This document shows, in pieces, positions 201 to 9,522 of a DNA stretch of 64,000 nucleotides (its first letter is position 1; every line of letters begins with the position of its first letter). The stretch covers positions 2,296,477-2,360,476 of the forward strand of contig OY970306.1 in NCBI GenBank assembly GCA_963716375.1. The letters are read 5' to 3'. The translations under genes and the position numbers were made by a program. The DNA is from an uncultured Chloroflexia bacterium (GTDB taxonomy: Bacteria; Chloroflexota; Limnocylindria; Limnocylindrales; CSP1-4). Under the pieces are notes generated by a model. The model saw only the letters and a program-made list of their open reading frames with translations, ran no database searches and was not told the DNA's origin.

Positions 201-431
201 TCAGCGCGGCCGGGCGGACGGTCGGGCCGGGGTCGGGCTCTCGAACAGGCGGAACGCGAGGACCGGGCACGCGCCGACGGCCCGATGGGCGAGGTCGAGC
301 AGCTCCGGCTGCACCTCGGCGTTGCGGACGATCGGATAGCCCCAATCGTCGAGCGCGAGCAGCTCCGGCAGCAGCTCGGCGCAGATGCCGCGGCCATCGC
401 AGGCGATCCGGTCGATGTTGAGGACGGCCAT
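201..431 (-). CDS. small ferredoxin (three-Cys, single-cluster type)
   Basis: 76 aa: MAVLNIDRIACDGRGICAELLPE...HRAVGACPVLAF (C-x5-C ... CP). This is the last part of the listed 201..2576 ORF. Its ATG at 429-431 overlaps the TGA of the upstream gene (ATGA). Confidence 0.75.
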   Translation of the reverse strand: MAVLNIDRIACDGRGICAELLPELLALDDWGYPIVRNAEVQPELLDLAHRAVGACPVLAFRLFESPTPARPSARPR

Positions 432-2371
432 CAGCTGAATCCGCCGAGGACGGAGCAGCGGCCCTGCATGTGCAGCGCGAACTCGTCGGCGAAGATCCGC
501 AGGCCGCTCTTCAGGAAGACGGCGGCGCCGTCCGGGTGGGCGCACGCTCCACGGCCGGCGAGCTGCGCGCCCCACCGCCCGATTCGCTCGAGGTCGCCGG
601 GCTCCGGCGTCCGGCCGGCGACCCGCTGGGTGGCATCCGCCACGGCCCGCATTCCGAAGACGCAGGGCCCGCACTGGCCGACGCTCTCGCCGGCCATGTA
701 GGCCATCAGCGAGGCCGTCTGGACCACGCCGCACGTCGCCTGGGGCATCACGGCGATGACGCCGGCGCCGAACCACAGGCCATGGCGCGTCATCACGGCC
801 GGATCGAGCGGCAGCTCTCGCGCGTCGTGGACGTCGGCCCAGGCCCCGAACGAATCGCCGAGCATGACGCCCTGCCCAGCCCGCGTGAGCCCGCCGACGC
901 GCTCGAGCACCTCGCCCACCGTGGTCCCGAATTCGATCTCGACGACCCGCTGGGCAGGCGTCGTGCCGGAGACCGTGACGAGTGCCGTGCCCGGCGTCTC
1001 GCCGCGGCCCATCTGGCGGTACCAGGCGTCGCCATACCGTGCGATCAACGCGGCATAGGCCAGGCTCTCGACGTTCTGGACGAGCGTCGGCATCCCGCGG
1101 ACGCCGCGCTCGAACATCCGCGGCGGCGAACTGGTCGGGCGGGCATCCCCGGCGTTGATGTAGTGCACGGCCGCGGACGATTCGCCCACGACGTAGCCGA
1201 GCGGCGCCTCCACGAGCCGCACGGGCAGCGGGAATTCGTGCTGGCGTTCGGCAAGGGCGCGACTCATCGCGTCCCACGCCGGCCGATGCTCCTGGCCGAC
1301 GAACAGGACGATCTCGTCGGCCCCGACCGCGTCGGCCGCGATGATGGCGCCGTCGATCACGAGATGCGGCCGGAGTGCCATCAGGACCCGGTCCTTGCGG
1401 CTCGTCGGCTTGCCCTCGGCGCCATTGACGACGACCACGGCATTGCCGCTCGAACGCTCGGCGACGGCCCGCCACTTGCGGCCGACCGGAAAGCCCGCGC
1501 CGCCGCGGCCCTGGAGCCCCGTGGCTTCGATGATCGGGATCACCGCCGACCCGTGGAGCGGCAGCGGACCCAGCCGGCCGCGATGGTCGCGCAGGCTTTC
1601 GGCCCCGGCCGTCACGATCGGACCCGCGAGCAGCCGATCGGTCGAAAGGACCGGCGCCAGCGAGTGGGCGGTCACCGGCGGGCCGAACGGCCCGGGCGGC
1701 GGTTGTGGCGGTCGGCCTGCCCCACTCGGTGGCGGGACGTAGGTTCCCGCCTCGACCCGTGGGCCGTCCGCGAAACCGGAGGGATTGAGCATGCCGGACC
1801 GCTCGAGCGCGACCTTGGCGGGCACGAGGTCCTCGAGCCGCCGGCGCGCCTGGGCGTCGAGGATCCGCCAGGCGACGGCGCCTCCGACTGCAGCGATGCA
1901 GGCCACGTTGATGGCCTGCATCCAGAGCGCTCCGCTGTCCGTGCCGGTCCCGATGCTGTGAATCATGGCGATGGGCCAGAACGCGTAGGTCAGCCAGTGG
2001 ACAGCCCGCCACGTGCGCAGGCCGAGGCGATCGCGAACGAGGCTCGTCACGACGATCGCGATCAGGAGGTACATCGCCACGGAGCCGAGGCCGAGGTAGA
2101 GCCGGCGGTAGTCGGCCGAGAACGGGATGGCCGCCGACGTCCAGCCGAGGGCTGTGAACGGATCGATGATCGAGGTCACGATGTGGAGCGCCAGGAATAC
2201 GAGGGACGAGAGCGCGAGCGTGCGATGCAGTTCCGCCGAGAGGACCCTCGGCCAGGACGGCCGTTCCCAGCGGATCGCGGTCAGGAGGCCGAGGCAAAAG
2301 ACGATCGTGAACATGATCTGCGAGACGACGGCAGAGCCGCGGGTGCTGTACCAGAGGATCGAGTCGTTCAT
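431..2371 (-). CDS. fusion protein: ferric-reductase-type di-haem transmembrane domain + NuoF-like (NADH dehydrogenase 51-kDa-subunit-like) FMN/NADH/Fe-S domain
   Basis: 646 aa. The N-terminal ~175 aa form 5-6 hydrophobic helices with two His pairs at 13- and 12-residue spacing (H-RTLALSSLVFLAL-H and H-WLTYAFWPIAMI-H), as in MsrQ/NOX/FRE haem-b domains. After a Pro/Gly-rich linker come NuoF-type blocks: GLQGRGGAGFPVGRKW, VVVVNGAEGKPTSRKDR, LGYVVGESSAAV, PTLVQNVESL, GTALVTVSG and ESVGQCGPCVFG...GACAHPDG. Its ATG overlaps the apbE stop (ATGA at 2368-2371). Confidence 0.85.
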   Translation of the reverse strand: MNDSILWYSTRGSAVVSQIMFTIVFCLGLLTAIRWERPSWPRVLSAELHRTLALSSLVFLALHIVTSIIDPFTALGWTSAAIPFSADYRRLYLGLGSVAMYLLIAIVVTSLVRDRLGLRTWRAVHWLTYAFWPIAMIHSIGTGTDSGALWMQAINVACIAAVGGAVAWRILDAQARRRLEDLVPAKVALERSGMLNPSGFADGPRVEAGTYVPPPSGAGRPPQPPPGPFGPPVTAHSLAPVLSTDRLLAGPIVTAGAESLRDHRGRLGPLPLHGSAVIPIIEATGLQGRGGAGFPVGRKWRAVAERSSGNAVVVVNGAEGKPTSRKDRVLMALRPHLVIDGAIIAADAVGADEIVLFVGQEHRPAWDAMSRALAERQHEFPLPVRLVEAPLGYVVGESSAAVHYINAGDARPTSSPPRMFERGVRGMPTLVQNVESLAYAALIARYGDAWYRQMGRGETPGTALVTVSGTTPAQRVVEIEFGTTVGEVLERVGGLTRAGQGVMLGDSFGAWADVHDARELPLDPAVMTRHGLWFGAGVIAVMPQATCGVVQTASLMAYMAGESVGQCGPCVFGMRAVADATQRVAGRTPEPGDLERIGRWGAQLAGRGACAHPDGAAVFLKSGLRIFADEFALHMQGRCSVLGGFS

Positions 2372-3315
2372 GCCGCATCCGCCGCCGGGCCGACGAGCGG
2401 CTCCGGCCAGTGTCCGACCCGGCTGACGTCGCCGGCCCGCGACACGAGTCGGGCCGGGAGTCCGGCGGCTTCAAGCCACGCGATGGCGCGCTCGCCGAGC
2501 ACGATCGCCGCGGTCGCCGCCGTGTTGGCATCGACGCAGGTGCGGGCCACGACTGTCGCGGTCCGCCACGGCCCATCGACCGGCAATCCAGTCGCCGGAT
2601 CCACGATGTGATGGCGGACGATTCCGCCGGCCGTCCAGCGTCGAACCGTCGTGCTCGAGGTGGCCAGCGCGTCGCCGCGGATCGCGATCACCTCGCCATC
2701 GGCATCGGGTGGCGTGCGGCTGTCCTCGGCGCAGTTCACGCGCCAGCCGCCGTCGGGCGCGGGTCCGGCCGTTGCCAGGTCGCCGCCCAGGCTCACGAGG
2801 ACGCCGCAGCCGGCCGCCCGCTCGGCCGCGGTGGCCGCCAGGTCCGCGGCCAGGGCCTTGCCCGTCGAACCGAGGTCGAGACTCACCCCGCGGGGCACGC
2901 GTGCCGTTCGCGCGACCGAATCCAGCTGGATCGTGCGCCAGCCGGGCACGCGGACGATGGTGATCGGGGCAGGCATTGCGGCCGCCGTCAATGCGGCGAA
3001 ATCCCGGTCGTAGCCGAGCGCTCGGAGCGCGCCGCCGACGGTCGGATCGACAGCCCCATCGGTCATCACGGCGGCCCGGACGGCAGCCTGGAGCGCCTCG
3101 AACAGCAGTGGACTGACCCGGACGGGCCGGTCGGGTGACACATTGAGCGCGGTCAGCTCGCTATCGGCGCGGAAGCGGCTGTAGGTCGCATCGACGGTTT
3201 CGAGGACCAGGCGGACCGCCTCGGCGGCAACCGGGGCCGCCTGCTCGTCGGTCACGAGCACGTGGACGGACGTCCCGAGCGCTTCCCAGCGGACGGCGGC
3301 GATCGGCGACTCCAT
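2368..3315 (-). CDS. apbE: FAD:protein FMN transferase (ApbE family), no recognisable signal peptide
   Basis: 315 aa with ApbE-type blocks: YSRFRADSELTALN, DLGSTGKALAADL and RHHIVDPATGLPV. The N-terminus MESPIAAVRWEALGTSVHVLV goes straight into the mature-domain pattern, with no hydrophobic leader and no lipobox. Both ends have ATGA overlaps. Confidence 0.88.
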   Translation of the reverse strand: MESPIAAVRWEALGTSVHVLVTDEQAAPVAAEAVRLVLETVDATYSRFRADSELTALNVSPDRPVRVSPLLFEALQAAVRAAVMTDGAVDPTVGGALRALGYDRDFAALTAAAMPAPITIVRVPGWRTIQLDSVARTARVPRGVSLDLGSTGKALAADLAATAAERAAGCGVLVSLGGDLATAGPAPDGGWRVNCAEDSRTPPDADGEVIAIRGDALATSSTTVRRWTAGGIVRHHIVDPATGLPVDGPWRTATVVARTCVDANTAATAAIVLGERAIAWLEAAGLPARLVSRAGDVSRVGHWPEPLVGPAADAA

Positions 3316-3641
3316 CAGGATCCGCCGCTCGTTGTCTGGGCGGCCCGGCGCGTGGCCGTCGGGGTCGCGGTCGGCATGGCCGGTGTCGCGGCGGCCGTCG
3401 GGGAGGTCGTCGTCGTGGCCGCCGTCGTGGCCGCCGTCTCGACGGCCGCCGCCGTGGTCGTCCTGCTCGTGGCGGTGGTCGCGTCAGCTGCTGTCGAGCC
3501 ACCCGGATACGAGATGGCGGCGATGGCGCTGACTCCGACGACGGTCAGCGCGGCGGCGATCGTGCCACCCCGGTTGATCGCCGCCAGCCGCCGCACCATG
3601 CGGTCGCGGTTCGCGGGTCGGGAGTCGCGTGGCGTGTTCAT
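3315..3641 (-). CDS. small protein: twin-arginine-type signal/anchor followed by a Thr/Ala/Pro-rich tail (paralog A)
   Basis: 108 aa. It has an n-region RDRMVRRLAAINRGG, a weakly hydrophobic Ala/Gly-rich h-region TIAAALTVVGVSAIAAISYPG, then ~65 aa of low-complexity T/A/P ending in SGGS. AGGAAG lies ~9 nt before the ATG. Its TGA overlaps the apbE ATG. It is a paralog of 4047-4406. Confidence 0.6.
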   Translation of the reverse strand: MNTPRDSRPANRDRMVRRLAAINRGGTIAAALTVVGVSAIAAISYPGGSTAADATTATSRTTTAAAVETAATTAATTTTSPTAAATPAMPTATPTATRRAAQTTSGGS

Positions 3642-3689: not shown

Positions 3690-3920
3690 TCAGGATCCTG
3701 AACCGACGGTGCCCCAGCGGAGGCTCGGTCGGCTCACTCTAGTGTCATTCGCAGGGTTCGTGCGCGAGTCGGTCGCGGCCACCTGGCTTCTCGCCCGCTG
3801 GGTCACCGGGTTCGTGCCGGGCCCGGGCGGCGGGGCGCCGATCGGCCCGAAGAGGGTGGCCTGGTCGCCGCGCACGACGACGGTTCCGGCAGGGAGGGGG
3901 CGGTCGATCGGTTGGTCCAT
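3690..3920 (-). CDS. candidate small ORF (76 aa), function unknown
   Basis: An internal Met of the listed 3690..3929 ORF is preceded by CCAGGAGTGACCCCG-ATG, a strong SD at 8 nt. The first ~40 codons are GC3-rich, as in the real genes here. The last ~25 codons use rare codons (AGA, AAT, ACT, CGA) and overlap the duplicated promoter-like segment upstream of 3315-3641. No recognisable domain. Confidence 0.3.
   Translation of the reverse strand: MDQPIDRPLPAGTVVVRGDQATLFGPIGAPPPGPGTNPVTQRARSQVAATDSRTNPANDTRVSRPSLRWGTVGSGS
3736..3741 (-). promoter_or_regulatory. putative -10 hexamer TAGAGT for small-protein gene A / apbE operon
   Basis: A TAnnnT hexamer ~95 nt upstream of the ATG at 3641. It lies inside a ~60-nt segment about 65 % identical to the segment upstream of paralog B, which carries TACAGT at the equivalent position. 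Confidence 0.3.
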
Positions 3921-4046
3921 CGGGGTCACTCCTGGTCATCGAGCTGTGCGCTCGGGTTCGAATTGCCAGGAGTGTCGCGGGCCGACCCTTTCGGTCCGAT
4001 TACGGCCGACGCGGTCTGATTCGCCCGCCACGACAGTGTCCGGGGA

Positions 4047-4406
4047 TCAGGATCCGCCGCTGCTGACGCGGCCGCGTCCCCGAGTGGACCGGGGCGGAGC
4101 CGTTGGCGCCGCGAACGTGGGCGCGGGCGTCGGTGCCGCCTGGGCCGTGGGATTCGGATTGACGGCTCCCGAGCGCGTCCGGGCCGGCGTCGGGGTGGCG
4201 GCCGGTTCGGGGTTCGTGATCCCCTGTCCGCCATCGTTGCCGCCGTCGGGCGCCGCGGCGGACGCGCCCGGGTATGAGATCGCGGCCACGGCACTGATGC
4301 CGACGACGGCCGCCGTCGCGGCGATCGCTCCGCCGCGGTTGATCAGGGAGAGCCGGCGGATGGTCCGATCCCGCTCGCGTGGACTGAGGTCCGGTGGGGT
4401 GCTCAT
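4047..4406 (-). CDS. small protein: twin-arginine-type signal/anchor followed by a Pro/Ala/Thr-rich tail (paralog B)
   Basis: 119 aa: RERDRTIRRLSLINRGG, then AIAATAAVVGISAVAAISYPGASA (an AxA-like site), then a low-complexity tail ending in SSGGS. AGGAA lies 6 nt before the ATG. The last 15 nt (AGCGGCGGATCCTGA) are identical to those of paralog A. Confidence 0.55.
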   Translation of the reverse strand: MSTPPDLSPRERDRTIRRLSLINRGGAIAATAAVVGISAVAAISYPGASAAAPDGGNDGGQGITNPEPAATPTPARTRSGAVNPNPTAQAAPTPAPTFAAPTAPPRSTRGRGRVSSGGS

Positions 4407-4504
4407 CGTGGATTCCTGTATCGCTCGGAGGTGGCCGGGACACTGGCCGTCATGAAGGTCGATGTCCCGAGCTCGTGGCCCCTGTGTCGAGGCTCGGCGT
4501 TCTG

Positions 4505-4510
4505 ACTGTA
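4505..4510 (-). promoter_or_regulatory. putative -10 hexamer TACAGT for small-protein gene B
   Basis: A TAnnnT hexamer ~99 nt upstream of the ATG at 4406, at the position equivalent to TAGAGT upstream of paralog A. Confidence 0.3.
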
Positions 4511-4642
4511 CCCGCTATCCAGGGAATCGTCGCGAACCGGTGCCTTTGGGCACCCCCGGACCGGCGGCCAACTGGCGCTGTCTTTGGGAACACACATCTT
4601 CGTCTCAGCCGACTCACAGACTGCGACGGCAGGCTGGTTGAA

Positions 4643-6076
4643 ATGAACAGCACAAGGGCGCCCCTGGGTCGACGCGCCCTCGATGGGAACCGCGGGCCCA
4701 CTCGGGGGCGGCATCTCACCGGACGTCCCGCCGTCCCGCACCCGCGGGTCTGGCCGATCGGCGTCGGCGACATTGCCTGGATCCTGCTCGGCAATGCGAT
4801 CCTGATCATCGCCATGTGGGTCCGTCACGGCCAGCTCTCCGAGCTCGGCAGCCTCTCTGGCCTCCTGACGGCTGCGGGCCAGGTCACGGCGCTGCTCGGG
4901 ACCTACGCCGTGCTGATCCAGCTCGTCCTGATGTCAAGAAGCCCATGGCTGGACCAGCAGTTCGGGATGGACCGGCTTGTTGTGTGGCACCGCTGGCTCG
5001 GGTTCGCCACGGTCTGGCTGCTCCTGGGTCACGGCATCTTCACGACCGCGGGGTATGCGCTCGGCGACGGCAGCAGCATGCCCGGCGAACTGTGGACGCT
5101 CCTCACCACCTATCCGTACGTGCTGATGGCGACCGCCGGGATGGCCCTGTTCCTGGCGGTGGGTGTCAGTTCCGTGCGGCGCGTCCGAAAGCGGGTTTCG
5201 TACGAGACGTGGTACGGGATCCACCTCTATGCGTACCTCGCGGTTGCGTTGGCATTCGCCCACCAGCTCGCGGTCGGATCCGATTTCACGTCCGATCCAC
5301 TGGCTCGCGTCTACTGGGTCGCCCTCTATGCATTCGTCGCCGTGCTGGTCCTGGTCTTTCGGATCGGTCACCCGATCGCGCTCTCGCTGCGCCATCGATT
5401 GCGCGTGTCGAGCGTCGTCCAGGAAGCGCCCGGGGTCGTGTCGGTCTACGTGACCGGTCGGGACCTGGATCGACTCGCCGTTCGAGCCGGCCAGTACTTC
5501 CTCTGGCGGTTCCTGGCGCGAGACGGATGGTGGCGAGCGCATCCCTTCTCCCTCTCGGCCGCGCCGAACGGGAAGTACCTTCGGTTGACGATCAAGGAGC
5601 TCGGCGATTGGTCGGGCGCCCTCCAGGATCTCCATCCCGGCACGCGAGTCTTCGCCGAGGGTCCATACGGGCGGCTCACCTCGTCCGCTCGGCGCACCTC
5701 GCGCGTGCTGCTGATCGCGGGCGGCATCGGGATCACGCCGCTGCGAGCGCTCCTCGAGGAACTGCCCAGCGGAGCCGGGGCGGTCACGCTGATCTATCGC
5801 GCCCGCGATTGGAGCGACGTCGTCTTCCACGACGAGCTGGAGGAACTGGCTCGAGCGCGTGGTGCCGAGATCCACTTCGTCGTCGGCGAGCGCGGCAGCC
5901 CCGACGTCCCGGACGATCCGCTCGGGGCGCCATCGATTCGCCGCCTGGTCCCCGACATCCTCATGCGGGACGTCTATCTCTGCGGCCCGCTCGGGATGAT
6001 GGACGCCGTCAGGCATGCGCTTCGAACGCTCCGTGTGCCCGCGAGTCGCATCCACAGCGAACGATTCGCGTACTGA
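4643..6076 (+). CDS. NOX/FRE-type reductase: ferric-reductase di-haem TM domain + FAD-binding + NAD(P)H-binding domains
   Basis: Start taken at MNSTRAP, the internal ATG at 4643 of the listed 4394..6076 ORF. Two His pairs are present: H-RWLGFATVWLLLG-H (13 residues apart) and H-LYAYLAVALAFA-H (12 apart). Also present are RAHPFSLS (HPFS FAD motif), LLIAGGIGITP (NAD(P)H motif) and YLCGPLGMM. Confidence 0.88.
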   Translation: MNSTRAPLGRRALDGNRGPTRGRHLTGRPAVPHPRVWPIGVGDIAWILLGNAILIIAMWVRHGQLSELGSLSGLLTAAGQVTALLGTYAVLIQLVLMSRSPWLDQQFGMDRLVVWHRWLGFATVWLLLGHGIFTTAGYALGDGSSMPGELWTLLTTYPYVLMATAGMALFLAVGVSSVRRVRKRVSYETWYGIHLYAYLAVALAFAHQLAVGSDFTSDPLARVYWVALYAFVAVLVLVFRIGHPIALSLRHRLRVSSVVQEAPGVVSVYVTGRDLDRLAVRAGQYFLWRFLARDGWWRAHPFSLSAAPNGKYLRLTIKELGDWSGALQDLHPGTRVFAEGPYGRLTSSARRTSRVLLIAGGIGITPLRALLEELPSGAGAVTLIYRARDWSDVVFHDELEELARARGAEIHFVVGERGSPDVPDDPLGAPSIRRLVPDILMRDVYLCGPLGMMDAVRHALRTLRVPASRIHSERFAY

Positions 6077-6079
6077 GAG

Positions 6080-6790
6080 ATGCGATTCGTTCTGCCACGA
6101 CGCGGCGTGCTTGCGCTCCTCAGCACGATCATCGGTCTGGTCCTCCTGCTGGGATTCAAGACTCCCCAGCCGATCCTGACGACCGGAGTCGGAATCGTTG
6201 CACGAGGCTCGAACCCGGCAAGATCGACCGCTCCAATCGCCCTTGGCCCGGGGGCTGGCAGATCTGCCACGACCAATCCGCCCGCCACTGCCATTCCGTC
6301 GCCGGCCAGCCAGACAAGCGGGATCCTCTCGGCCGCGGGCCCATCGACGTCGCCGAGCGCTGGTTCGACCACGAAACCGGTGCTCTCGACTGCCCAAGCC
6401 GGCAAGCGGGCGAATCACGCGGCCACGCCGCGGCCGGCCAGGACGCCGCCGCCTGCGCCACCCACCGCGGCGCCAACGCCGCACCGGACGCCGACTCCGA
6501 CGCCGGCCGCGTTCACCGGCAGCGTCACGGGTCCCGTTGTCGCGACCCCGTTCGGCGACGTCCAGGTTCGGGCCACCCTTTCGAGCGGGAAGCTCGTTGA
6601 CGTCCAGCCCTTGCAGATGCCGTCGGACGCGACCCGGTCGCAGATGATTGCCCAGTACGCGGCGCCGATCCTCCGGAGCGAGGCACTCACCGCCCAGAGC
6701 GCGCAGATCAACCTCGTGTCCGGAGCGACCTACACGAGCGAGGGCTACGCGCAATCGCTCCAGGCGGCTCTCGATCAGGCGAGGCGCTGA
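6080..6790 (+). CDS. membrane-anchored/exported FMN-binding-domain protein (ApbE flavinylation substrate type)
   Basis: 236 aa. The N-terminus is MRFVLPRRGVLALLSTIIGLVLLLGF, followed by a ~120-aa Pro/Thr/Ala linker. The C-terminal FMN_bind-type domain reads GDVQVRATLSSGKLVDVQPL...QSAQINLVSGATYTSEGY, with the [S/T]GA[S/T] motif. The gene starts 3 nt after the reductase gene. Confidence 0.85.
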   Translation: MRFVLPRRGVLALLSTIIGLVLLLGFKTPQPILTTGVGIVARGSNPARSTAPIALGPGAGRSATTNPPATAIPSPASQTSGILSAAGPSTSPSAGSTTKPVLSTAQAGKRANHAATPRPARTPPPAPPTAAPTPHRTPTPTPAAFTGSVTGPVVATPFGDVQVRATLSSGKLVDVQPLQMPSDATRSQMIAQYAAPILRSEALTAQSAQINLVSGATYTSEGYAQSLQAALDQARR

Positions 6791-6858: not shown

Positions 6859-9522
6859 TCAGGGCTGAGGCGTCTTTCCCTGGACCAGCTGGACCATCTC
6901 ATCGAGGCTCAGGGATCGCCCCGCTGCGTACGCTTCCTCGAAGGCCTCCTCGCCCAAAGCACCCCGAGCGACGGGCGCCGGGTCGTCGAGGCCGAGGAGG
7001 TGCATCGGCGTGGCGATGTCGCCCAGAGGCTCCTTGAGTCGGGCGGCTGCACCGCAAAGGAGAGCGGCCCCCTTGGGATCGCCTTCCACGACCGCGAGCA
7101 TGCCCGCCATGATGAGGAGGCTGACGATGCGCTGCATGTCGCCCGCCTGACGGAACAGGCCGATCGCCTCGCCGAGGCTCTTGTGGGCCGCGGCGAATGC
7201 GTGGTCCTTGATGTTGATTCCGGACAGCAGACTGAGCGCGCTCGCGATCCGGAACGTTTCCCCGGCGGTTCGGAGGGCGGCCAGGTTCTCCTCCTCGACG
7301 GCTCGCGCCGCAGCGTAGTCGCCCGAGTGATACAGGATGAACACGAGAGCCTCGTGAACATTGACGAGGCTCTTGCGGTCCCCGATCGCCTCGTAGATTC
7401 GAATGGCTTCGTCGTACCTGGCCCGGGCGCCGGCATGGTCGCCGGTGAGCGCCGCCACGAACCCCGCGTTGTAGAGCGCGCCAGCGAGCCCGCCCGGATC
7501 ATCGAGCTCGCGCTCGATTTCAAGGGCCTCCTCGTAGGCGTGCCCGGCACTTGCAATGTCCGCTTGCCAGTAGGCGACGCCTCCGAGTCCGCCGAGAGCC
7601 CTCGCGCGGGCCCCGGTTCGGCCGGCTGCCCCAGGCCGATCGAGCAGACCGCGGAGCGTCTCTCGGCCCTCAACCAGGTGCCCGCGCTGCTGCCAGAACC
7701 GCCAGAGCGCCGCGGCCATGTCGAGGGCGAGCTCGATGCGGCCATCGTCGGCCGCTCGCCCAATGGCCGCCCGCAGGTTGTCGCGGTCCATCTCGAGGCG
7801 GTCGAGCCACTCTTTCGGGCGCGAGCCCAGCAGCTCGGGTTCGGCCCGTCGCGCCAGGGCCGCGAACTGGTCTTCATGTCGGTGTCGGACCGTCTCGTTC
7901 TCCGCGCCCTCAGCCAGGCGTTCGAGGCCGTACTCTCGGATCGTCTCCAGCATCAGGAAACGCGGTTCGCCATTGGGTGATTGGATCTGTCGCAGGAGGC
8001 TCTTGTCCACGAGGGAGGCCAGCGCGTCGAGCATGTCGATCCCCAGCTCGCCGTCCGGATCGCAGACCGCCGCGGCGCTCTCGATCGTGCACCCGCCGAC
8101 GAAGATGGCGAGCCGACGGAACAGCATGCGTTCAGGTGCATCCAGGAGGTCTTGGCTCCAGCCGATCGCCCCGCGGAGCGTGCGCTGTCGCTCGGGAACG
8201 TCGCGCGAGCTGCTCGTCAGAAGCGCCAGGCTCTTCTCCAGGCGCGCCAGGATGGCCTCGGGCCCGAAGAGCTTGCTGCGGGCGGCAGCCAGCTCGATCG
8301 CCAGCGGCAGGCCGTCCAGGCGTGCACAGATGGCGGCGACCGCCGACGCGTTCTGCTCGTCGAGCCGGAAGTCCGGCTGCACGGCCCGCGCCCGCTGGAT
8401 GAACAGGGCCACGCCGTCGTACCCGGTGAGCGACTCCAGGGGCGGCAGGGCACTCGGGTTCGGGACTCCCAGCGGCGGGACCGGATACTCCTGTTCACCG
8501 CTCAGATGCAGCACCTCCCGACTCGACGCCAGGACCGTCAGGTGCGGCGCAGCCGCCAGGAGACGTCCGACCAGAGGTGCGCCGGCAACAAGCTGTTCGA
8601 AGTTGTCGGCCACGAGCAGGAGGTGGAGTTCGCGCAGGTACGCCTCGAGCAGCTCCGCGACGGGCTGCTTCGGGTCTTCTCGGAGACCGATCGACTGCGC
8701 GATCGTGGTCGGGATCAGGCCAGGGTCGCTGATCGGAGCAAGCTCCACGAAGAACGCGCCGCCCGGGTATTCCGGCCGGAGTTGTTCTGCCACGCGCAGG
8801 CTCAGCCGTGTCTTGCCGGCCCCGCCTGGACCGGTCAGAGTCACCAGCCGCGAGTGCCGAACCAGCTCGCAGACCTCAGCGATCTCCCGTTCACGGCCCA
8901 CAAAGCTCGTCGCCTGGGGCGGCAGGTGGGACGGCATCTCCAGCGTCCGAGGCGGCGGGAAGTCGTCCGCCAGGCCCGGGCCGACGAGCTGCGCCAGGCG
9001 CTCCGGCAGTTCGAGATCCTTGAGCCGGAACTCGCCCAGCTCGCGCAGCTGAAGATCTGCGGGGAGCGATCCGCGGACCAGCACGCCGGTTGCCGAGGAG
9101 ACGAGAACCTGACCGCCGTGCGCCGCGGCCGCGATGCGCGCCGCACGGTGGACATCCAGGCCCACGTAGTTGTCGCCGCCGAAGGTGGCCTCGCCCGTGT
9201 GAAGACCCATGCGTACGCGGACAGCCCCGACATTGTCAGGCCACGGCTCGGTCGCAAGGGAGCGTTGCGCCGCTGCCGCGGCCGACAGAGCCGAGGCGGC
9301 ACTTTGGAACACGACGAAGAAGGCGTCCCCTTCGGTCGAAATCTCGATCCCTCCGGCCGTCTCGAACGCAGCGCGGAGGAGGCTGTGGTGCCGCTCGAGA
9401 AGCGGCCCAAACGCAGGCCCCAGGGCGGTCACGAGGCGGGTTGACCCCTCGATGTCCGTGAACATGAACGTGATCGTGCCGGTTGGCAGGGTTGAAGCAC
9501 GCGACCGCGACTGGTTCGCCAC
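6859..9522 (-). CDS. class III adenylate/guanylate cyclase domain + P-loop STAND (NB-ARC-like) ATPase + TPR repeats
   Basis: 887 aa. Cyclase blocks: TFMFTDIEGST, EGDAFFVVF, VRMGLHTGE and HRAARIAAAAHGGQVLVS. Walker A: LTGPGGAGKTRL. The C-terminal ~350 aa are TPR-like (repeated A..Y.EAL.I......). GTG start. Confidence 0.85.
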   Translation of the reverse strand: MANQSRSRASTLPTGTITFMFTDIEGSTRLVTALGPAFGPLLERHHSLLRAAFETAGGIEISTEGDAFFVVFQSAASALSAAAAAQRSLATEPWPDNVGAVRVRMGLHTGEATFGGDNYVGLDVHRAARIAAAAHGGQVLVSSATGVLVRGSLPADLQLRELGEFRLKDLELPERLAQLVGPGLADDFPPPRTLEMPSHLPPQATSFVGREREIAEVCELVRHSRLVTLTGPGGAGKTRLSLRVAEQLRPEYPGGAFFVELAPISDPGLIPTTIAQSIGLREDPKQPVAELLEAYLRELHLLLVADNFEQLVAGAPLVGRLLAAAPHLTVLASSREVLHLSGEQEYPVPPLGVPNPSALPPLESLTGYDGVALFIQRARAVQPDFRLDEQNASAVAAICARLDGLPLAIELAAARSKLFGPEAILARLEKSLALLTSSSRDVPERQRTLRGAIGWSQDLLDAPERMLFRRLAIFVGGCTIESAAAVCDPDGELGIDMLDALASLVDKSLLRQIQSPNGEPRFLMLETIREYGLERLAEGAENETVRHRHEDQFAALARRAEPELLGSRPKEWLDRLEMDRDNLRAAIGRAADDGRIELALDMAAALWRFWQQRGHLVEGRETLRGLLDRPGAAGRTGARARALGGLGGVAYWQADIASAGHAYEEALEIERELDDPGGLAGALYNAGFVAALTGDHAGARARYDEAIRIYEAIGDRKSLVNVHEALVFILYHSGDYAAARAVEEENLAALRTAGETFRIASALSLLSGINIKDHAFAAAHKSLGEAIGLFRQAGDMQRIVSLLIMAGMLAVVEGDPKGAALLCGAAARLKEPLGDIATPMHLLGLDDPAPVARGALGEEAFEEAYAAGRSLSLDEMVQLVQGKTPQP

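What the first reader, a model, noticed from the sequence alone, without database searches (positions are those of the whole stretch)
431..2371. Unusual fusion: MsrQ/NOX-type di-haem membrane domain fused to a NuoF-like NADH/FMN/Fe-S module with a non-canonical cluster motif
Seen: one 646-aa ORF joins a ferric-reductase-type TM domain to a complete NuoF-like soluble domain through a Pro/Gly-rich linker (PPPSGAGRPPQPPPGPFGPP). The TM domain has His pairs spaced 13 and 12 residues apart. The soluble domain has GRGGAGFPVGRKW, an SLBB-like segment and a C-terminal Fe-S helix bundle.
In the position of the canonical NuoF N3 motif ES-C-xx-C-xx-C, the sequence reads ES-V-GQ-C-GP-C. The first Cys is therefore Val, leaving that Cys pair plus GACAHPDG and a terminal GRC. 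The FMN loop GAYICGEE is replaced by LGYVVGES.
Established: known ferric-reductase-domain proteins take electrons from an FNR-like FAD/NAD(P)H module (NOX, FRE) or from a separate partner (MsrQ with Fre). NuoF normally works inside complex I or soluble hydrogenase/formate dehydrogenase diaphorase modules.
Inference: this is a self-contained NADH:haem-b transmembrane electron conduit with a different input chemistry, possibly using the co-translated ferredoxin (201-431) as an extra relay. I cannot tell from the sequence whether this architecture has been characterised.
Basis: partly seen in the sequence, partly recalled or inferred. Interest (0 to 1): 0.7.

Follow-up and report, generated by a model that had tools for sequence, protein, structure and literature searches.

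The report
Haem conduit fused to NuoF-like dehydrogenase
One bacterial gene joins a two-haem membrane "wire" to an NADH-oxidising module of the complex I type; the fusion is real and is a fused version of a five-gene cassette, mentioned once in 2021 but never studied, that probably carries electrons from NADH to a flavin-tagged peptide outside the cell.

Summary
ORF 431..2371(-) encodes 646 aa: a 5-helix ferric-reductase-type domain with four invariant His (H49/H63, H125/H138), a 70-aa linker and a NuoF-like FMN/NADH plus Fe-S module. Every quoted motif is present.

It is not an assembly artefact. At least 12 independent homologues are fused the same way and share a conserved linker motif.

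It is not a stand-alone oddity either. In 79 of 80 related loci from Chloroflexota/Dormibacterota-labelled MAGs, the haem protein (~195 aa) and the NuoF-like protein (~415 aa) are adjacent genes. They sit in a cassette with a 3-Cys ferredoxin, a signal-peptide-less ApbE flavin transferase, and a small membrane-anchored Ser/Thr-rich protein. That small protein ends in V-[ST]-[ST]-G-[GA]-S, an ApbE-type flavinylation motif. The window carries the fused form.

The family replaces the first N3 cysteine with Ala/Val/Ser throughout.

Most likely mechanism: NADH to FMN, to an Fe-S cluster, to ferredoxin, across two haems b, to an outside flavin.

Méheust et al. 2021 noted NuoF-like genes in 31 "MsrQ-like" flavinylation clusters. 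The kind is therefore known bioinformatically but is uncharacterised. I rate it a new variant of a known kind, of moderate interest.

The parts
431..2371 (-). Fusion gene, 646 aa: haem-b ferric-reductase-type domain, linker, NuoF-like module
   Evidence: ORF; three Pfam domains above cut-off; at least 12 independent full-length fused homologues at 63-72% identity.
1847..2371 (-). Residues 1-175: five-helix membrane domain. H49/H63 lie on helix 2 and H125/H138 on helix 4 (inner and outer haem ligand pairs). The conserved outside loops are DPFT.LGW..IPFS and HGIGTG[ST]D.
   Evidence: Ferric_reduct hit. His positions and invariance. Helices in both AlphaFold models. K+R counts per loop give N-terminus out and C-terminus in.
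1637..1846 (-). Residues 176-245: linker. It contains a conserved block (VP...NP.GF.GGPR.EAGT) followed by a Pro/Gly-rich stretch of variable length.
   Evidence: N196, P197, G203, P204 and E207 are invariant in the fused homologues, while length varies by up to about 50 residues. AlphaFold confidence is low at residues 236-243. Split relatives lack this block.
434..1636 (-). Residues 246-646: NuoF-like module. It comprises an FMN/NADH Rossmann-like domain (281-438), an SLBB-like segment (about 462-505) and a helical Fe-S bundle (548-635) with C567, C570 and C610. V564 replaces the first N3 Cys.
   Evidence: Pfam. TIGR01959 scores 210 bits against a cut-off of 558.65. PDB sequence hits to HydB/NuoF at E 1e-44. 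Foldseek TM up to 0.84. Residue counts at key columns.
201..431 (-). Ferredoxin, 76 aa, single cluster with three Cys (C-x2-R-x2-C...C-P). It is translationally coupled to the fusion gene.
   Evidence: Fer4_15 hit. TGATG overlap. The same 3-Cys pattern, never with Cys at the middle position, in 74 of 79 orthologues.
2368..3315 (-). ApbE-family FAD:protein FMN transferase, 315 aa, with no signal peptide or lipobox. It overlaps the fusion gene start by ATGA.
   Evidence: ApbE hit at 178 bits. Junction sequence. There is no in-frame start codon in the 56 codons upstream. The orthologues likewise start directly at the domain.
3315..3641 (-). Small protein, 108 aa: Arg-rich N-tail, one membrane helix, Thr/Ala-rich linker, C-terminus ...TTSGGS. 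Candidate ApbE substrate and outside electron acceptor.
   Evidence: Paralogue of the protein at 4047..4406. Orthologues found in at least 51 of 80 loci, with tails VTSGGS, AVSGGS, VSGASH, AVSGAS and others. The Gly codons vary synonymously. K+R averages 5.6 in the N-flank and 0.2 in the C-flank.
4047..4406 (-). Second copy of the small protein, 119 aa, ending ...RVSSGGS.
   Evidence: 46% identical to the first copy, E 9e-25. No gene overlaps its stop codon. Second copies are also seen in L023, L043, L067, L069, L075 and L080.
4394..6076 (+). Neighbouring classical NOX-like gene on the opposite strand (Ferric_reduct + FAD_binding_8 + NAD_binding_1). The true start is probably downstream of 4394.
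   Evidence: Pfam. It is not found next to the cassette in any of the other loci.
6080..6790 (+). Membrane-anchored FMN_bind protein carrying a canonical SGAT flavinylation motif.
   Evidence: FMN_bind hit at residues 159-232. The sequence ...LVSGATYTS... is visible.

Best explanation
The gene encodes the central, fused component of a cytoplasm-to-outside electron export chain.

Proposed path. NADH is oxidised at a non-covalent FMN in the cytoplasmic NuoF-like module. Electrons pass one at a time to its Fe-S cluster, which has three Cys ligands and an unknown or absent fourth. From there they go to the co-translated three-Cys ferredoxin, either as a relay or as a bound extra subunit. They then cross the membrane through the inner haem b (H49/H125) and the outer haem b (H63/H138). 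On the outer face the most likely acceptor is an FMN attached by the co-encoded ApbE to the C-terminal Ser of the small membrane-tethered protein. That protein could swing on its Ser/Thr-rich linker to reach terminal acceptors such as Fe(III), quinones/humics, O2 or a reductase encoded elsewhere.

The fusion is a lineage-specific joining of two genes that are adjacent and separate in most relatives.

Shown here: the domain content, the His and Cys patterns, the topology prediction, the conserved gene order, the fusion-versus-split distribution and the conserved C-terminal motif. Inferred: cofactor binding, the direction and order of electron transfer, flavinylation of the small protein and the terminal acceptor.
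For: Domains and motifs.

FMN/NADH determinants are largely kept: GRGGAGF, K299, N316, E319, Y393, G396-E397 and NVES.

The soluble module has a NuoF/HydB fold, TM up to 0.84.

Topology is N-terminus out, C-terminus in. Loops 1, 3 and the post-TM5 segment carry 2.6, 3.9 and 2.5 K+R, against 1.1, 1.3 and 0.1 for the other side.

Cassette content over 80 loci found through the haem domain alone: a NuoF-like gene is adjacent in 79, ferredoxin in 74, ApbE is within the flank in 66, and the small protein is present in at least 51. Gene order varies (ApbE upstream in 32 loci, downstream in 34) while content is kept.

The fused forms make one clade in a rough NJ tree, plus one outlier. The linker motif is conserved at the protein level.

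The small-protein tails include canonical [ST]GA[ST] variants and show synonymous Gly-codon variation. ApbE-dependent flavinylation of FMN_red proteins, whose predicted sites lie on an unstructured C-terminal extension, has been shown experimentally (PMC11334425).

Méheust et al. proposed NAD(P)H as the donor for MsrQ-like systems and noted NuoF-like partners (PMC8238504).
Against: No cofactor, activity or localisation has been measured.

ApbE lacks any export signal in all loci, whereas the small protein's tail is predicted to be outside. Either flavinylation precedes translocation, or ApbE is exported unconventionally, or the tail is not the substrate.

The N3-type cluster lacks one Cys ligand family-wide, so its nature and even its presence are uncertain.

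D94 of canonical NuoF is Ala in all 119 family members, so FMN binding could be altered.

The 70-residue partly disordered linker gives no assurance that the soluble module docks under the haem.

No terminal reductase or iron-uptake gene is conserved nearby.

The fold search with the membrane domain alone was inconclusive.
Confidence: 0.55

Rival explanations
1. It is a non-pumping NADH:quinone oxidoreductase. The NuoF-like/ferredoxin pair feeds the di-haem protein, which acts as a membrane quinone-reducing subunit, like the cytochrome b subunits of other dehydrogenases. Electrons would end in the menaquinone pool rather than outside the cell.
For: NuoF-type modules normally feed respiratory chains. 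E. coli MsrQ, a relative of the membrane domain, carries a bound ubiquinone that may accept electrons (PMC12525009 abstract). No terminal extracytoplasmic reductase is conserved near the cassette.
Against: It does not explain the near-constant presence of ApbE and of a small protein with an outside-facing flavinylation-type tail. It also does not explain the strongly conserved outer loops next to the outer haem. Two stacked haems spanning the membrane are not needed to reduce quinone from the cytoplasmic side.
Confidence: 0.15
2. It is an MsrPQ-like or NOX-like system. The haem domain would deliver electrons directly to a dedicated extracytoplasmic enzyme encoded elsewhere, or to O2 to make superoxide. 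On this reading ApbE and the small protein serve the neighbouring classical NOX-like/FMN_bind pair, or something else.
For: The four-His 13/12 spacing is that of NOX/FRE enzymes. In this window a classical NOX-like gene and an FMN_bind gene with an SGAT motif lie next door.
Against: The NOX-like/FMN_bind pair is absent from all 85 other loci, while ApbE and the small protein remain. No MsrP-type molybdoenzyme gene appears among the conserved neighbours.
Confidence: 0.15
3. The NuoF-like/ferredoxin pair is primarily a soluble NAD(P)H:ferredoxin reductase system, for example for P450s or other ferredoxin clients. The haem protein would merely anchor it, or drain excess electrons as a safety valve.
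For: NuoF-like plus Fer4_15 pairs exist without any haem protein or ApbE nearby (L003, L004). These pairs are sister to the fused clade in the NJ tree.
Against: Every member of this haem-protein subfamily with enough flanking sequence has the NuoF-like gene adjacent (79 of 80). The covalent fusion argues that electron transfer between the two is the selected function.
Confidence: 0.1
4. The long ORF is an artefact: two adjacent genes joined by a sequencing or assembly indel.
For: In relatives the two genes abut or overlap, so a single indel could merge them. Such merged, frame-shifted products do occur in public data: the apparent ApbE-haem-protein fusions P0177 and P0257, and the C-terminus of P0166.
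Against: At least 12 independently assembled homologues from JGI, ENA, NCBI and Logan sources show the same fusion. Their linker varies in length but contains invariant residues. Split relatives lack that linker block. There is no frame-shift signature in the window sequence.
Confidence: 0.02

Closest known systems
'MsrQ-like' flavinylation-associated transmembrane electron-transfer clusters (Méheust et al. 2021, eLife, PMC8238504)
   Same: A PF01794 haem membrane protein is encoded next to ApbE. The paper states that 31 such clusters include a NuoF-like (PF10589) protein and infers NAD(P)H as the cytosolic donor.
   Different: Typical members are described as six-helix proteins, often with a C-terminal NAD_binding_1 domain, clustered with an FMN_bind gene. 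[quoted passage not shown] Here the donor module is NuoF-like and covalently fused, a three-Cys ferredoxin is obligatory, and ApbE has no signal peptide. There is no FMN_bind domain in the conserved cassette. In its place is a small protein with a C-terminal [ST]G[GA]S tail. None of these points is described in that paper or in its 2024 follow-up.
NADPH oxidases and ferric reductases (NOX/FRE, including bacterial SpNOX, PDB 8qq7)
   Same: Four His on two helices with 13 and 12 intervening residues. A cytoplasmic nicotinamide-nucleotide dehydrogenase is fused C-terminally to the haem domain. The overall logic of exporting electrons is shared.
   Different: The dehydrogenase is a complex I-type FMN/Fe-S module, not an FNR-type FAD/NADPH domain. 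There are five predicted helices rather than six. An additional ferredoxin is present. The profile match to SpNOX is only marginal (E 8.3).
MsrQ (YedZ) with the flavin reductase Fre, and STEAP
   Same: Same Pfam superfamily. Electrons are supplied from a cytosolic NAD(P)H oxidoreductase to an outside acceptor. STEAP1 is the top (non-significant) structural match of the membrane domain.
   Different: MsrQ is described as carrying a b-type haem plus a bound FMN, and it serves the periplasmic molybdoenzyme MsrP. Here there are four invariant His, no MsrP gene nearby, and the donor is fused.
NuoF / HoxF / HydB / NfnB / FdsB flavoprotein subunits
   Same: Same fold (TM up to 0.84), same glycine-rich FMN loop, and the same positions for three of the four cluster ligands.
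   Different: It scores far below the NuoF equivalog cut-off (210 against 558.65 bits). The first N3 Cys is Ala/Val/Ser family-wide. Family-specific residues are H612-P613 and A318. There is no NuoE partner or nuo/hyd/fds context in any locus examined. The partner is a small 3-Cys ferredoxin.
Flavin-based extracellular electron transfer of Listeria (Ndh2, EetA/B, PplA, FmnB)
   Same: An ApbE-type enzyme and a membrane-tethered flavinylated protein on the outer face act as the last carrier to extracellular acceptors (summarised in PMC8238504).
   Different: The Listeria route runs through a quinone and EetA/B, and PplA has folded FMN_bind domains. Here the route is haem-based and the putative carrier is a disordered tail with a single terminal motif.

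Membership tests
Ferric reductase domain superfamily (Pfam PF01794; NOX, FRE, STEAP, MsrQ/YedZ) | Match to the family profile above its curated cut-off | tested here: met
   35.1 bits against a cut-off of 28, residues 16-135. The same domain is precomputed for most fused homologues and is found in distant relatives.
Ferric reductase domain superfamily (Pfam PF01794; NOX, FRE, STEAP, MsrQ/YedZ) | Two His pairs on two non-adjacent helices, with 13 and 12 intervening residues (the bis-haem motif of NOX/FRE) | tested here: met
   H49/H63 and H125/H138. Invariant in 10 to 12 clean homologues.
Ferric reductase domain superfamily (Pfam PF01794; NOX, FRE, STEAP, MsrQ/YedZ) | Six transmembrane helices | tested here: not met
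   Five helices appear in both AlphaFold models and in the hydrophobicity/charge analysis. The helix that precedes the core in NOX is absent.
Ferric reductase domain superfamily (Pfam PF01794; NOX, FRE, STEAP, MsrQ/YedZ) | Structural similarity of the membrane domain to solved members | tested here: inconclusive
   The domain-only model has pLDDT 69. The best Foldseek hit is STEAP1, at E 0.54 and TM 0.35. The profile search of PDB sequences gives only SpNOX, at E 8.3.
Ferric reductase domain superfamily (Pfam PF01794; NOX, FRE, STEAP, MsrQ/YedZ) | Binds haem b | not testable with these tools
   Needs UV-visible or pyridine haemochrome analysis of the purified protein.
NuoF proper (complex I 51-kDa subunit, TIGR01959) | Score above the equivalog cut-off | tested here: not met
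   210.3 bits against a cut-off of 558.65.
NuoF proper (complex I 51-kDa subunit, TIGR01959) | Four-Cys ligation of cluster N3 (C-x2-C-x2-C plus a distal C) | tested here: not met
   The first Cys is V564 here and Ala 113 / Val 4 / Ser 1 among 119 family members.
NuoF proper (complex I 51-kDa subunit, TIGR01959) | NuoE partner and nuo operon context | tested here: not met
   No 2Fe-2S thioredoxin-like gene or other nuo gene appears in the window cassette or in the annotated related loci.
NuoF-like superfamily (Complex1_51K + NADH_4Fe-4S fold) | Both Pfam domains present and the NuoF fold | tested here: met
   Pfam hits at 108.5 and 56.5 bits. Foldseek TM 0.76-0.84 to complex I subunits over about 380-417 columns.
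MsrQ-like flavinylation-associated system (operational definition of Méheust et al. 2021) | A PF01794 gene within five genes of an ApbE or FMN_bind gene | tested here: met
   ApbE is the adjacent gene and overlaps by ATGA. The FMN_bind gene at 6080..6790 lies within five genes of ApbE.
MsrQ-like flavinylation-associated system (operational definition of Méheust et al. 2021) | [quoted passage not shown] | tested here: inconclusive
   ApbE has none. The FMN_bind protein of this window has an N-terminal hydrophobic anchor, but no signal-peptide predictor was available. Most related loci have no FMN_bind gene at all.
ApbE substrates (flavinylated proteins) | [S/T]GA[S/T]-like motif with a Ser/Thr acceptor, encoded next to apbE | tested here: met
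   This refers to the small protein, not the fusion. Tails are VTSGGS, AVSGGS, VSGASH, AVSGAS, VTGASR and others, in at least 51 loci. The motif definition is from PMC8238504.
ApbE substrates (flavinylated proteins) | Covalent FMN actually attached | not testable with these tools
   Needs co-expression with ApbE, in-gel fluorescence and mass spectrometry.

The most novel reading that the evidence does not exclude
The cassette could be a previously undescribed minimal electron-export machine with three unusual parts. First, a complex I-type NADH module, with a three-Cys (possibly His-assisted or 3Fe-4S) cluster and a 3Fe-4S-type ferredoxin, feeds a NOX-like di-haem conduit. Second, the outside carrier is not a folded flavoprotein but a membrane-tethered, disordered Ser/Thr-rich peptide whose very last Ser carries FMN. 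Third, that FMN is put on by a cytoplasmic, signal-less ApbE before the tail is threaded across the membrane. This would be a new class of ApbE substrate and a new order of events for extracytoplasmic flavinylation.
Probability: 0.3. Interest if true: 0.75.

Novelty: new variant of a known kind. Interest (0 to 1): 0.5.

Why it matters
Known ferric-reductase-domain enzymes take electrons from an FNR-type FAD domain (NOX, FRE), from an F420H2:NADP+ oxidoreductase-like domain (STEAP) or from a separate flavin reductase (MsrQ with Fre). This last sentence rests on my own knowledge. A complex I-type FMN/Fe-S input, here welded to the haem domain, is a different way to build a transmembrane NADH oxidase. 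The fusion also gives Rosetta-stone evidence that the widespread split gene pairs work together.

The cassette occurs in MAGs labelled Chloroflexota and Dormibacterota, many of them from soil or permafrost samples by their isolate names. Their means of reaching outside electron acceptors or iron are little known. It also points to a candidate new ApbE substrate and to a signal-less ApbE serving an apparently outside target. The 2021 survey filtered for signal peptides and could have missed this; that survey notes that some ApbE substrates remain unidentified.

If the mechanism holds, the single 646-aa protein plus three small partners would be a compact, expressible NADH-to-outside electron conduit.

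Tried and rejected
1. C547 and C639 as replacements for the missing N3 cysteine. Both positions are also Cys in mycobacterial NuoF, which has all four ligands. C547 also sits at the start of a helix predicted to be continuous over residues 548-567, about 30 Å from C567. H612 (115 of 119) remains an untested candidate ligand.

2. The SGGS tail as a mere by-product of a Shine-Dalgarno sequence for the overlapping downstream gene. The Gly codons vary (GGC GGC, GGA GGT, GGG GGC and others). Some tails read SGAS. The second copy in the window has no overlapping downstream gene.

3. Tat export of a pre-flavinylated small protein. A twin-Arg is present in some N-tails but not conserved.

4. A longer ApbE with a hidden signal peptide. 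There is no start codon in the 56 in-frame codons upstream, and the orthologues begin at the same point. A frameshift joining the small protein to ApbE cannot be general, because ApbE follows the ferredoxin in 34 loci.

5. A flavinylation motif inside the haem domain, the NuoF-like module or the ferredoxin. None is conserved.

6. Apparent ApbE-haem-protein fusions in the representative library (P0177, P0257, P0193, P0216). By eye the sequences carry frame-shifted, Arg-rich stretches, so they are probably artefacts.

7. Structure search with the membrane domain alone. It was inconclusive.

8. Rfam scan of the whole window for an FMN or other riboswitch. Nothing was found.

9. Retrieving the 31 NuoF-containing clusters from the supplement of the 2021 paper. 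The stored file is truncated and the one hit was an ordinary NuoF.

10. Conserved neighbours that might name the terminal acceptor. Only lineage-level synteny was found: FtsEX-like, M23 peptidase, thiolase.


Full report
**1. What is in the sequence**

The minus-strand ORF 431..2371 encodes 646 aa. Pfam finds three domains above their gathering cut-offs:
- Ferric_reduct, residues 16-135, 35.1 bits;
- Complex1_51K, residues 281-438, 108.5 bits;
- NADH_4Fe-4S, residues 553-634, 56.5 bits.

SLBB is only sub-threshold (E 0.015, residues 465-500). NCBIfam's NuoF equivalog model scores 210 bits against a cut-off of 558.65. The soluble part is therefore NuoF-like but not NuoF.

The only His residues in the first 200 residues are at 49, 63, 125 and 138, giving 13 and 12 intervening residues. 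In alignments to solved HydB and to mycobacterial NuoF, V564 falls on the first Cys of ES-C-G-x-C-x-P-C. C567, C570 and C610 fall on the other three ligands of cluster N3.

An AlphaFold2 model built on 119 sequences has mean pLDDT 82 and pTM 0.75. It shows five long helices in residues 3-175, a low-confidence stretch at 236-243, and a well-modelled soluble module. That module superposes on HydB, NfnB and complex I 51-kDa subunits, with target TM-scores up to 0.84.

Counts of Lys and Arg per loop across the fused homologues are 2.6, 3.9 and 2.5 for loop 1, loop 3 and the post-helix-5 segment. They are 1.1, 1.3 and 0.1 for the N-tail, loop 2 and loop 4. By the positive-inside rule the N-terminus is outside and the NuoF-like module is in the cytoplasm. 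H49/H125 then lie near the inner face and H63/H138 near the outer face.

**2. The fusion is real**

A search of 5.8 billion proteins returned about 14 full-length clusters with the same three Pfam domains, at 63-72% identity, from JGI, ENA, NCBI and Logan assemblies. One further cluster was at 47%.

In their alignment the linker varies in length by up to about 50 residues. It nevertheless contains invariant residues N196, P197, G203, P204 and E207. That pattern indicates translation under selection, not a frame error.

A rough neighbour-joining tree of the NuoF-like parts places the window with L001, L005, L006, L007 and L009 in one clade. The fused L002, an error-prone long-read assembly, falls apart from them on a long branch. 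So there were one or two fusion events.

A full HMMER scan of 1.84 billion representative proteins with the membrane domain gave 283 hits at E <= 1e-30. Of the best 150, three exceed 600 aa. Two are haem-domain/NuoF-like fusions: P0010, which represents the window's cluster, and P0217. P0217 is 40% identical and carries an extra hydrophobic segment in its linker, so its topology is unclear. The third, P0257, is an apparent ApbE-haem-protein fusion that I judge to be an artefact.

**3. The fusion is the rare form of a conserved cassette**

I scanned one genome per GTDB species with the membrane domain alone. This found 260 relatives, and 80 loci were fetched. Most are labelled Chloroflexota, Chloroflexi or Dormibacterota (Dormiibacterota); a few carry other labels.

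I mapped the window's proteins onto all ORFs of these loci. The results:
- a NuoF-like gene lies directly downstream of the haem gene in 79 of 80;
- a Fer4_15 ferredoxin follows in 74;
- ApbE is within the flank in 66, upstream in 32 and downstream in 34.

In nearly all loci outside the window's clade, the haem protein (about 185-200 aa) and the NuoF-like protein (about 400-415 aa) are separate genes that abut or overlap.

Annotated contigs show the same picture: small protein, ApbE, fusion, ferredoxin in L001 and L002. NuoF-like/ferredoxin pairs without a haem protein or ApbE also exist (L003, L004).

In the window the four genes are translationally coupled: TGATG between the small protein and ApbE, ATGA between ApbE and the fusion, and TGATG between the fusion and the ferredoxin.

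**4. Family-wide peculiarities of the soluble module and the ferredoxin**

Among 119 family members:
- the first N3 position is Ala in 113, Val in 4 and Ser in 1, never Cys;
- C547, C567, C570, C610 and C639 are each Cys in 118;
- H612 is present in 115 and D614 in 117;
- the position of canonical Asp94 is Ala in all 119.

Mycobacterial NuoF also has Cys at the positions of C547 and C639, together with all four ligands. Those two residues are therefore not family-specific replacements. The cluster could be a 3Fe-4S centre, or a 4Fe-4S centre with a non-Cys or recruited ligand. This is open.

The ferredoxin has exactly three Cys, arranged C-x2-X-x2-C...C-P, in 74 of 79 orthologues. X is His, Arg, Ser, Tyr, Phe or Ala. 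From general knowledge of such ferredoxins this is the 3Fe-4S pattern; that reading is an inference.

**5. The small protein and ApbE**

Upstream of ApbE (or, in the other gene order, upstream of the haem gene) lies a gene for a roughly 100-aa protein with no Pfam match. It has an Arg-rich N-tail containing an R-D-R motif, one hydrophobic helix, a Ser/Thr/Ala-rich low-complexity stretch and a conserved extreme C-terminus.

Over the loci the tails read VTSGGS (12), AVSGGS (8), VTGGSR (5), VSGASH (5), AVTGGS (4), VTTGGS, ATSGGS, AVSGAS, VTGASR and others. This is the [S/T]G[A/G][S/T] pattern of ApbE flavinylation sites, as defined in PMC8238504.

The two Gly codons vary synonymously between loci, so the conservation is at the protein level. 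A strict form of the tail motif occurs in 36 of 8,048 ORFs of all loci, and all but two of these are the cassette-associated small protein or its second copy. The window has two copies, 46% identical.

The flanks of the helix carry on average 5.6 K+R on the N side and 0.2 on the C side, so the tail should be outside.

ApbE-dependent flavinylation of FMN_red proteins, whose predicted sites lie on an unstructured C-terminal extension, has been shown experimentally (PMC11334425).

ApbE in this cassette begins directly at the catalytic domain in every locus, without a signal peptide or lipobox. In the window no alternative start exists. How a cytoplasmic ApbE would serve an outside tail is unexplained. 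Modification of the very last residue before the tail is threaded through the membrane is physically conceivable but untested.

**6. Most likely mechanism**

NADH is oxidised at FMN in the cytoplasmic module. Single electrons then pass through its Fe-S cluster and the ferredoxin to the inner haem, then to the outer haem, then to an outside carrier. The best candidate for that carrier is FMN on the tail of the small protein.

Steps shown: domain content, ligand patterns, predicted topology, conserved synteny and the gene fusion. Steps inferred: all cofactor occupancies, the position of the ferredoxin in the chain, flavinylation of the small protein and the terminal acceptor.

The rivals, weighed in the Rival explanations section, are a quinone reductase, an MsrPQ/NOX-like role, a soluble ferredoxin-reductase role and an artefact.

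**7. Relation to what is known**

Méheust et al. 2021 defined 'MsrQ-like' flavinylation clusters: 1,797 clusters, mostly in Actinobacteria, usually with a C-terminal NAD_binding_1 domain. They remarked that 31 clusters include a NuoF-like protein. The 2024 follow-up does not mention NuoF. The 2013 survey of the ferric-reductase-domain superfamily showed no NuoF term in the full-text search and none of my NADH-dehydrogenase search terms.

So the association is on record as one sentence of comparative genomics. The following appear undescribed in the literature I could search:
- the fused protein;
- the obligatory ferredoxin;
- the altered cluster ligands;
- the signal-less ApbE;
- the tail-motif protein.

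In this window a classical NOX-like gene and an FMN_bind gene with an SGAT motif lie divergently next to the cassette. That adjacency is not seen in the other loci.

**8. Verdict**

Novelty: new variant of a known, uncharacterised kind. Interest 0.5. A bioenergetics specialist would find the input module and the candidate flavin-tail carrier worth an experiment, but the general idea of NAD(P)H-fed haem conduits coupled to flavinylation is already published.

Noticed in passing
window 3315-3641 (-) and 4047-4406 (-); orthologues in at least 51 of loci L006-L085: This is a family of roughly 100-aa proteins with no Pfam match. Each has an Arg-rich N-tail with an R-D-R motif, one membrane helix, a Ser/Thr-rich linker and a conserved extreme C-terminus V-[ST]-[ST]-G-[GA]-S, which in some loci is the canonical SGAS. 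It is always encoded with ApbE and the haem protein, so it is a candidate new class of ApbE substrate.
   Followed up: partly
window 2368-3315 (-); ApbE genes of L001-L085: ApbE in this cassette has no signal peptide or lipobox in any locus, although its likely substrates are predicted to face outside. Those substrates are the small-protein tail and, in the window, the FMN_bind protein with an SGAT motif.
   Followed up: partly
window 4394-6790 (+): A classical bacterial NOX-like gene (Ferric_reduct + FAD_binding_8 + NAD_binding_1) is followed by a membrane-anchored FMN_bind protein with an SGAT motif. Both are transcribed divergently from the cassette. This adjacency is specific to the window.
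   Followed up: partly
window 3690-3929 (-); L001 6221-6625 (+): A short ORF lies between the two small-protein copies. It shares a conserved block (..AG.[VL]V...D[QK]ATLFGP[IV]GA) with an ORF at the same relative position in L001 (E 5e-7 pairwise). It has no Pfam match and its function is unknown.
   Followed up: partly
L003 7001-8471, L004 7001-8471: These loci carry stand-alone pairs of a 415-aa NuoF-like protein and a 73-aa Fer4_15 ferredoxin, with no haem protein or ApbE nearby. In the NJ tree they are sister to the fused clade. They suggest that the NuoF-like/ferredoxin couple is a module in its own right.
   Followed up: partly
proteins P0123, P0126, P0132 and about 90 of the 150 best representatives: Many of the closest relatives of the haem domain are 330-390 aa. 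In the three sequences read (P0123, P0126, P0166) they carry a sixth hydrophobic helix followed by a conserved GW[AS]ARxGTP motif and a C-terminal region of roughly 150-270 aa with no Pfam match. In P0166 a frame-shifted NuoF-like N-terminus follows, so the NuoF-like partnership seems to extend to this architecture.
   Followed up: partly
proteins P0177, P0257, P0193, P0216: These are apparent ApbE-haem-protein fusion proteins in public predicted proteomes. By eye they contain frame-shifted Arg-rich stretches and look like merged adjacent genes from error-prone assemblies.
   Followed up: partly
window 6859-9522 (-): This is an 887-aa ORF. Its N-terminus reads like a class III adenylate/guanylate cyclase domain (..FMFTDIEGST..). 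It is followed by an NTPase-like and a TPR-like region typical of large signal-transduction ATPases. This was judged by eye only.
   Followed up: no
L021-L082, about 2-4 kb upstream of the haem gene: In about 20 loci with the small-haem-NuoF-like-ferredoxin-ApbE order, an FtsE/FtsX-like fused ABC protein and a coiled-coil M23 peptidase are conserved upstream. This is probably lineage synteny rather than a functional link.
   Followed up: no
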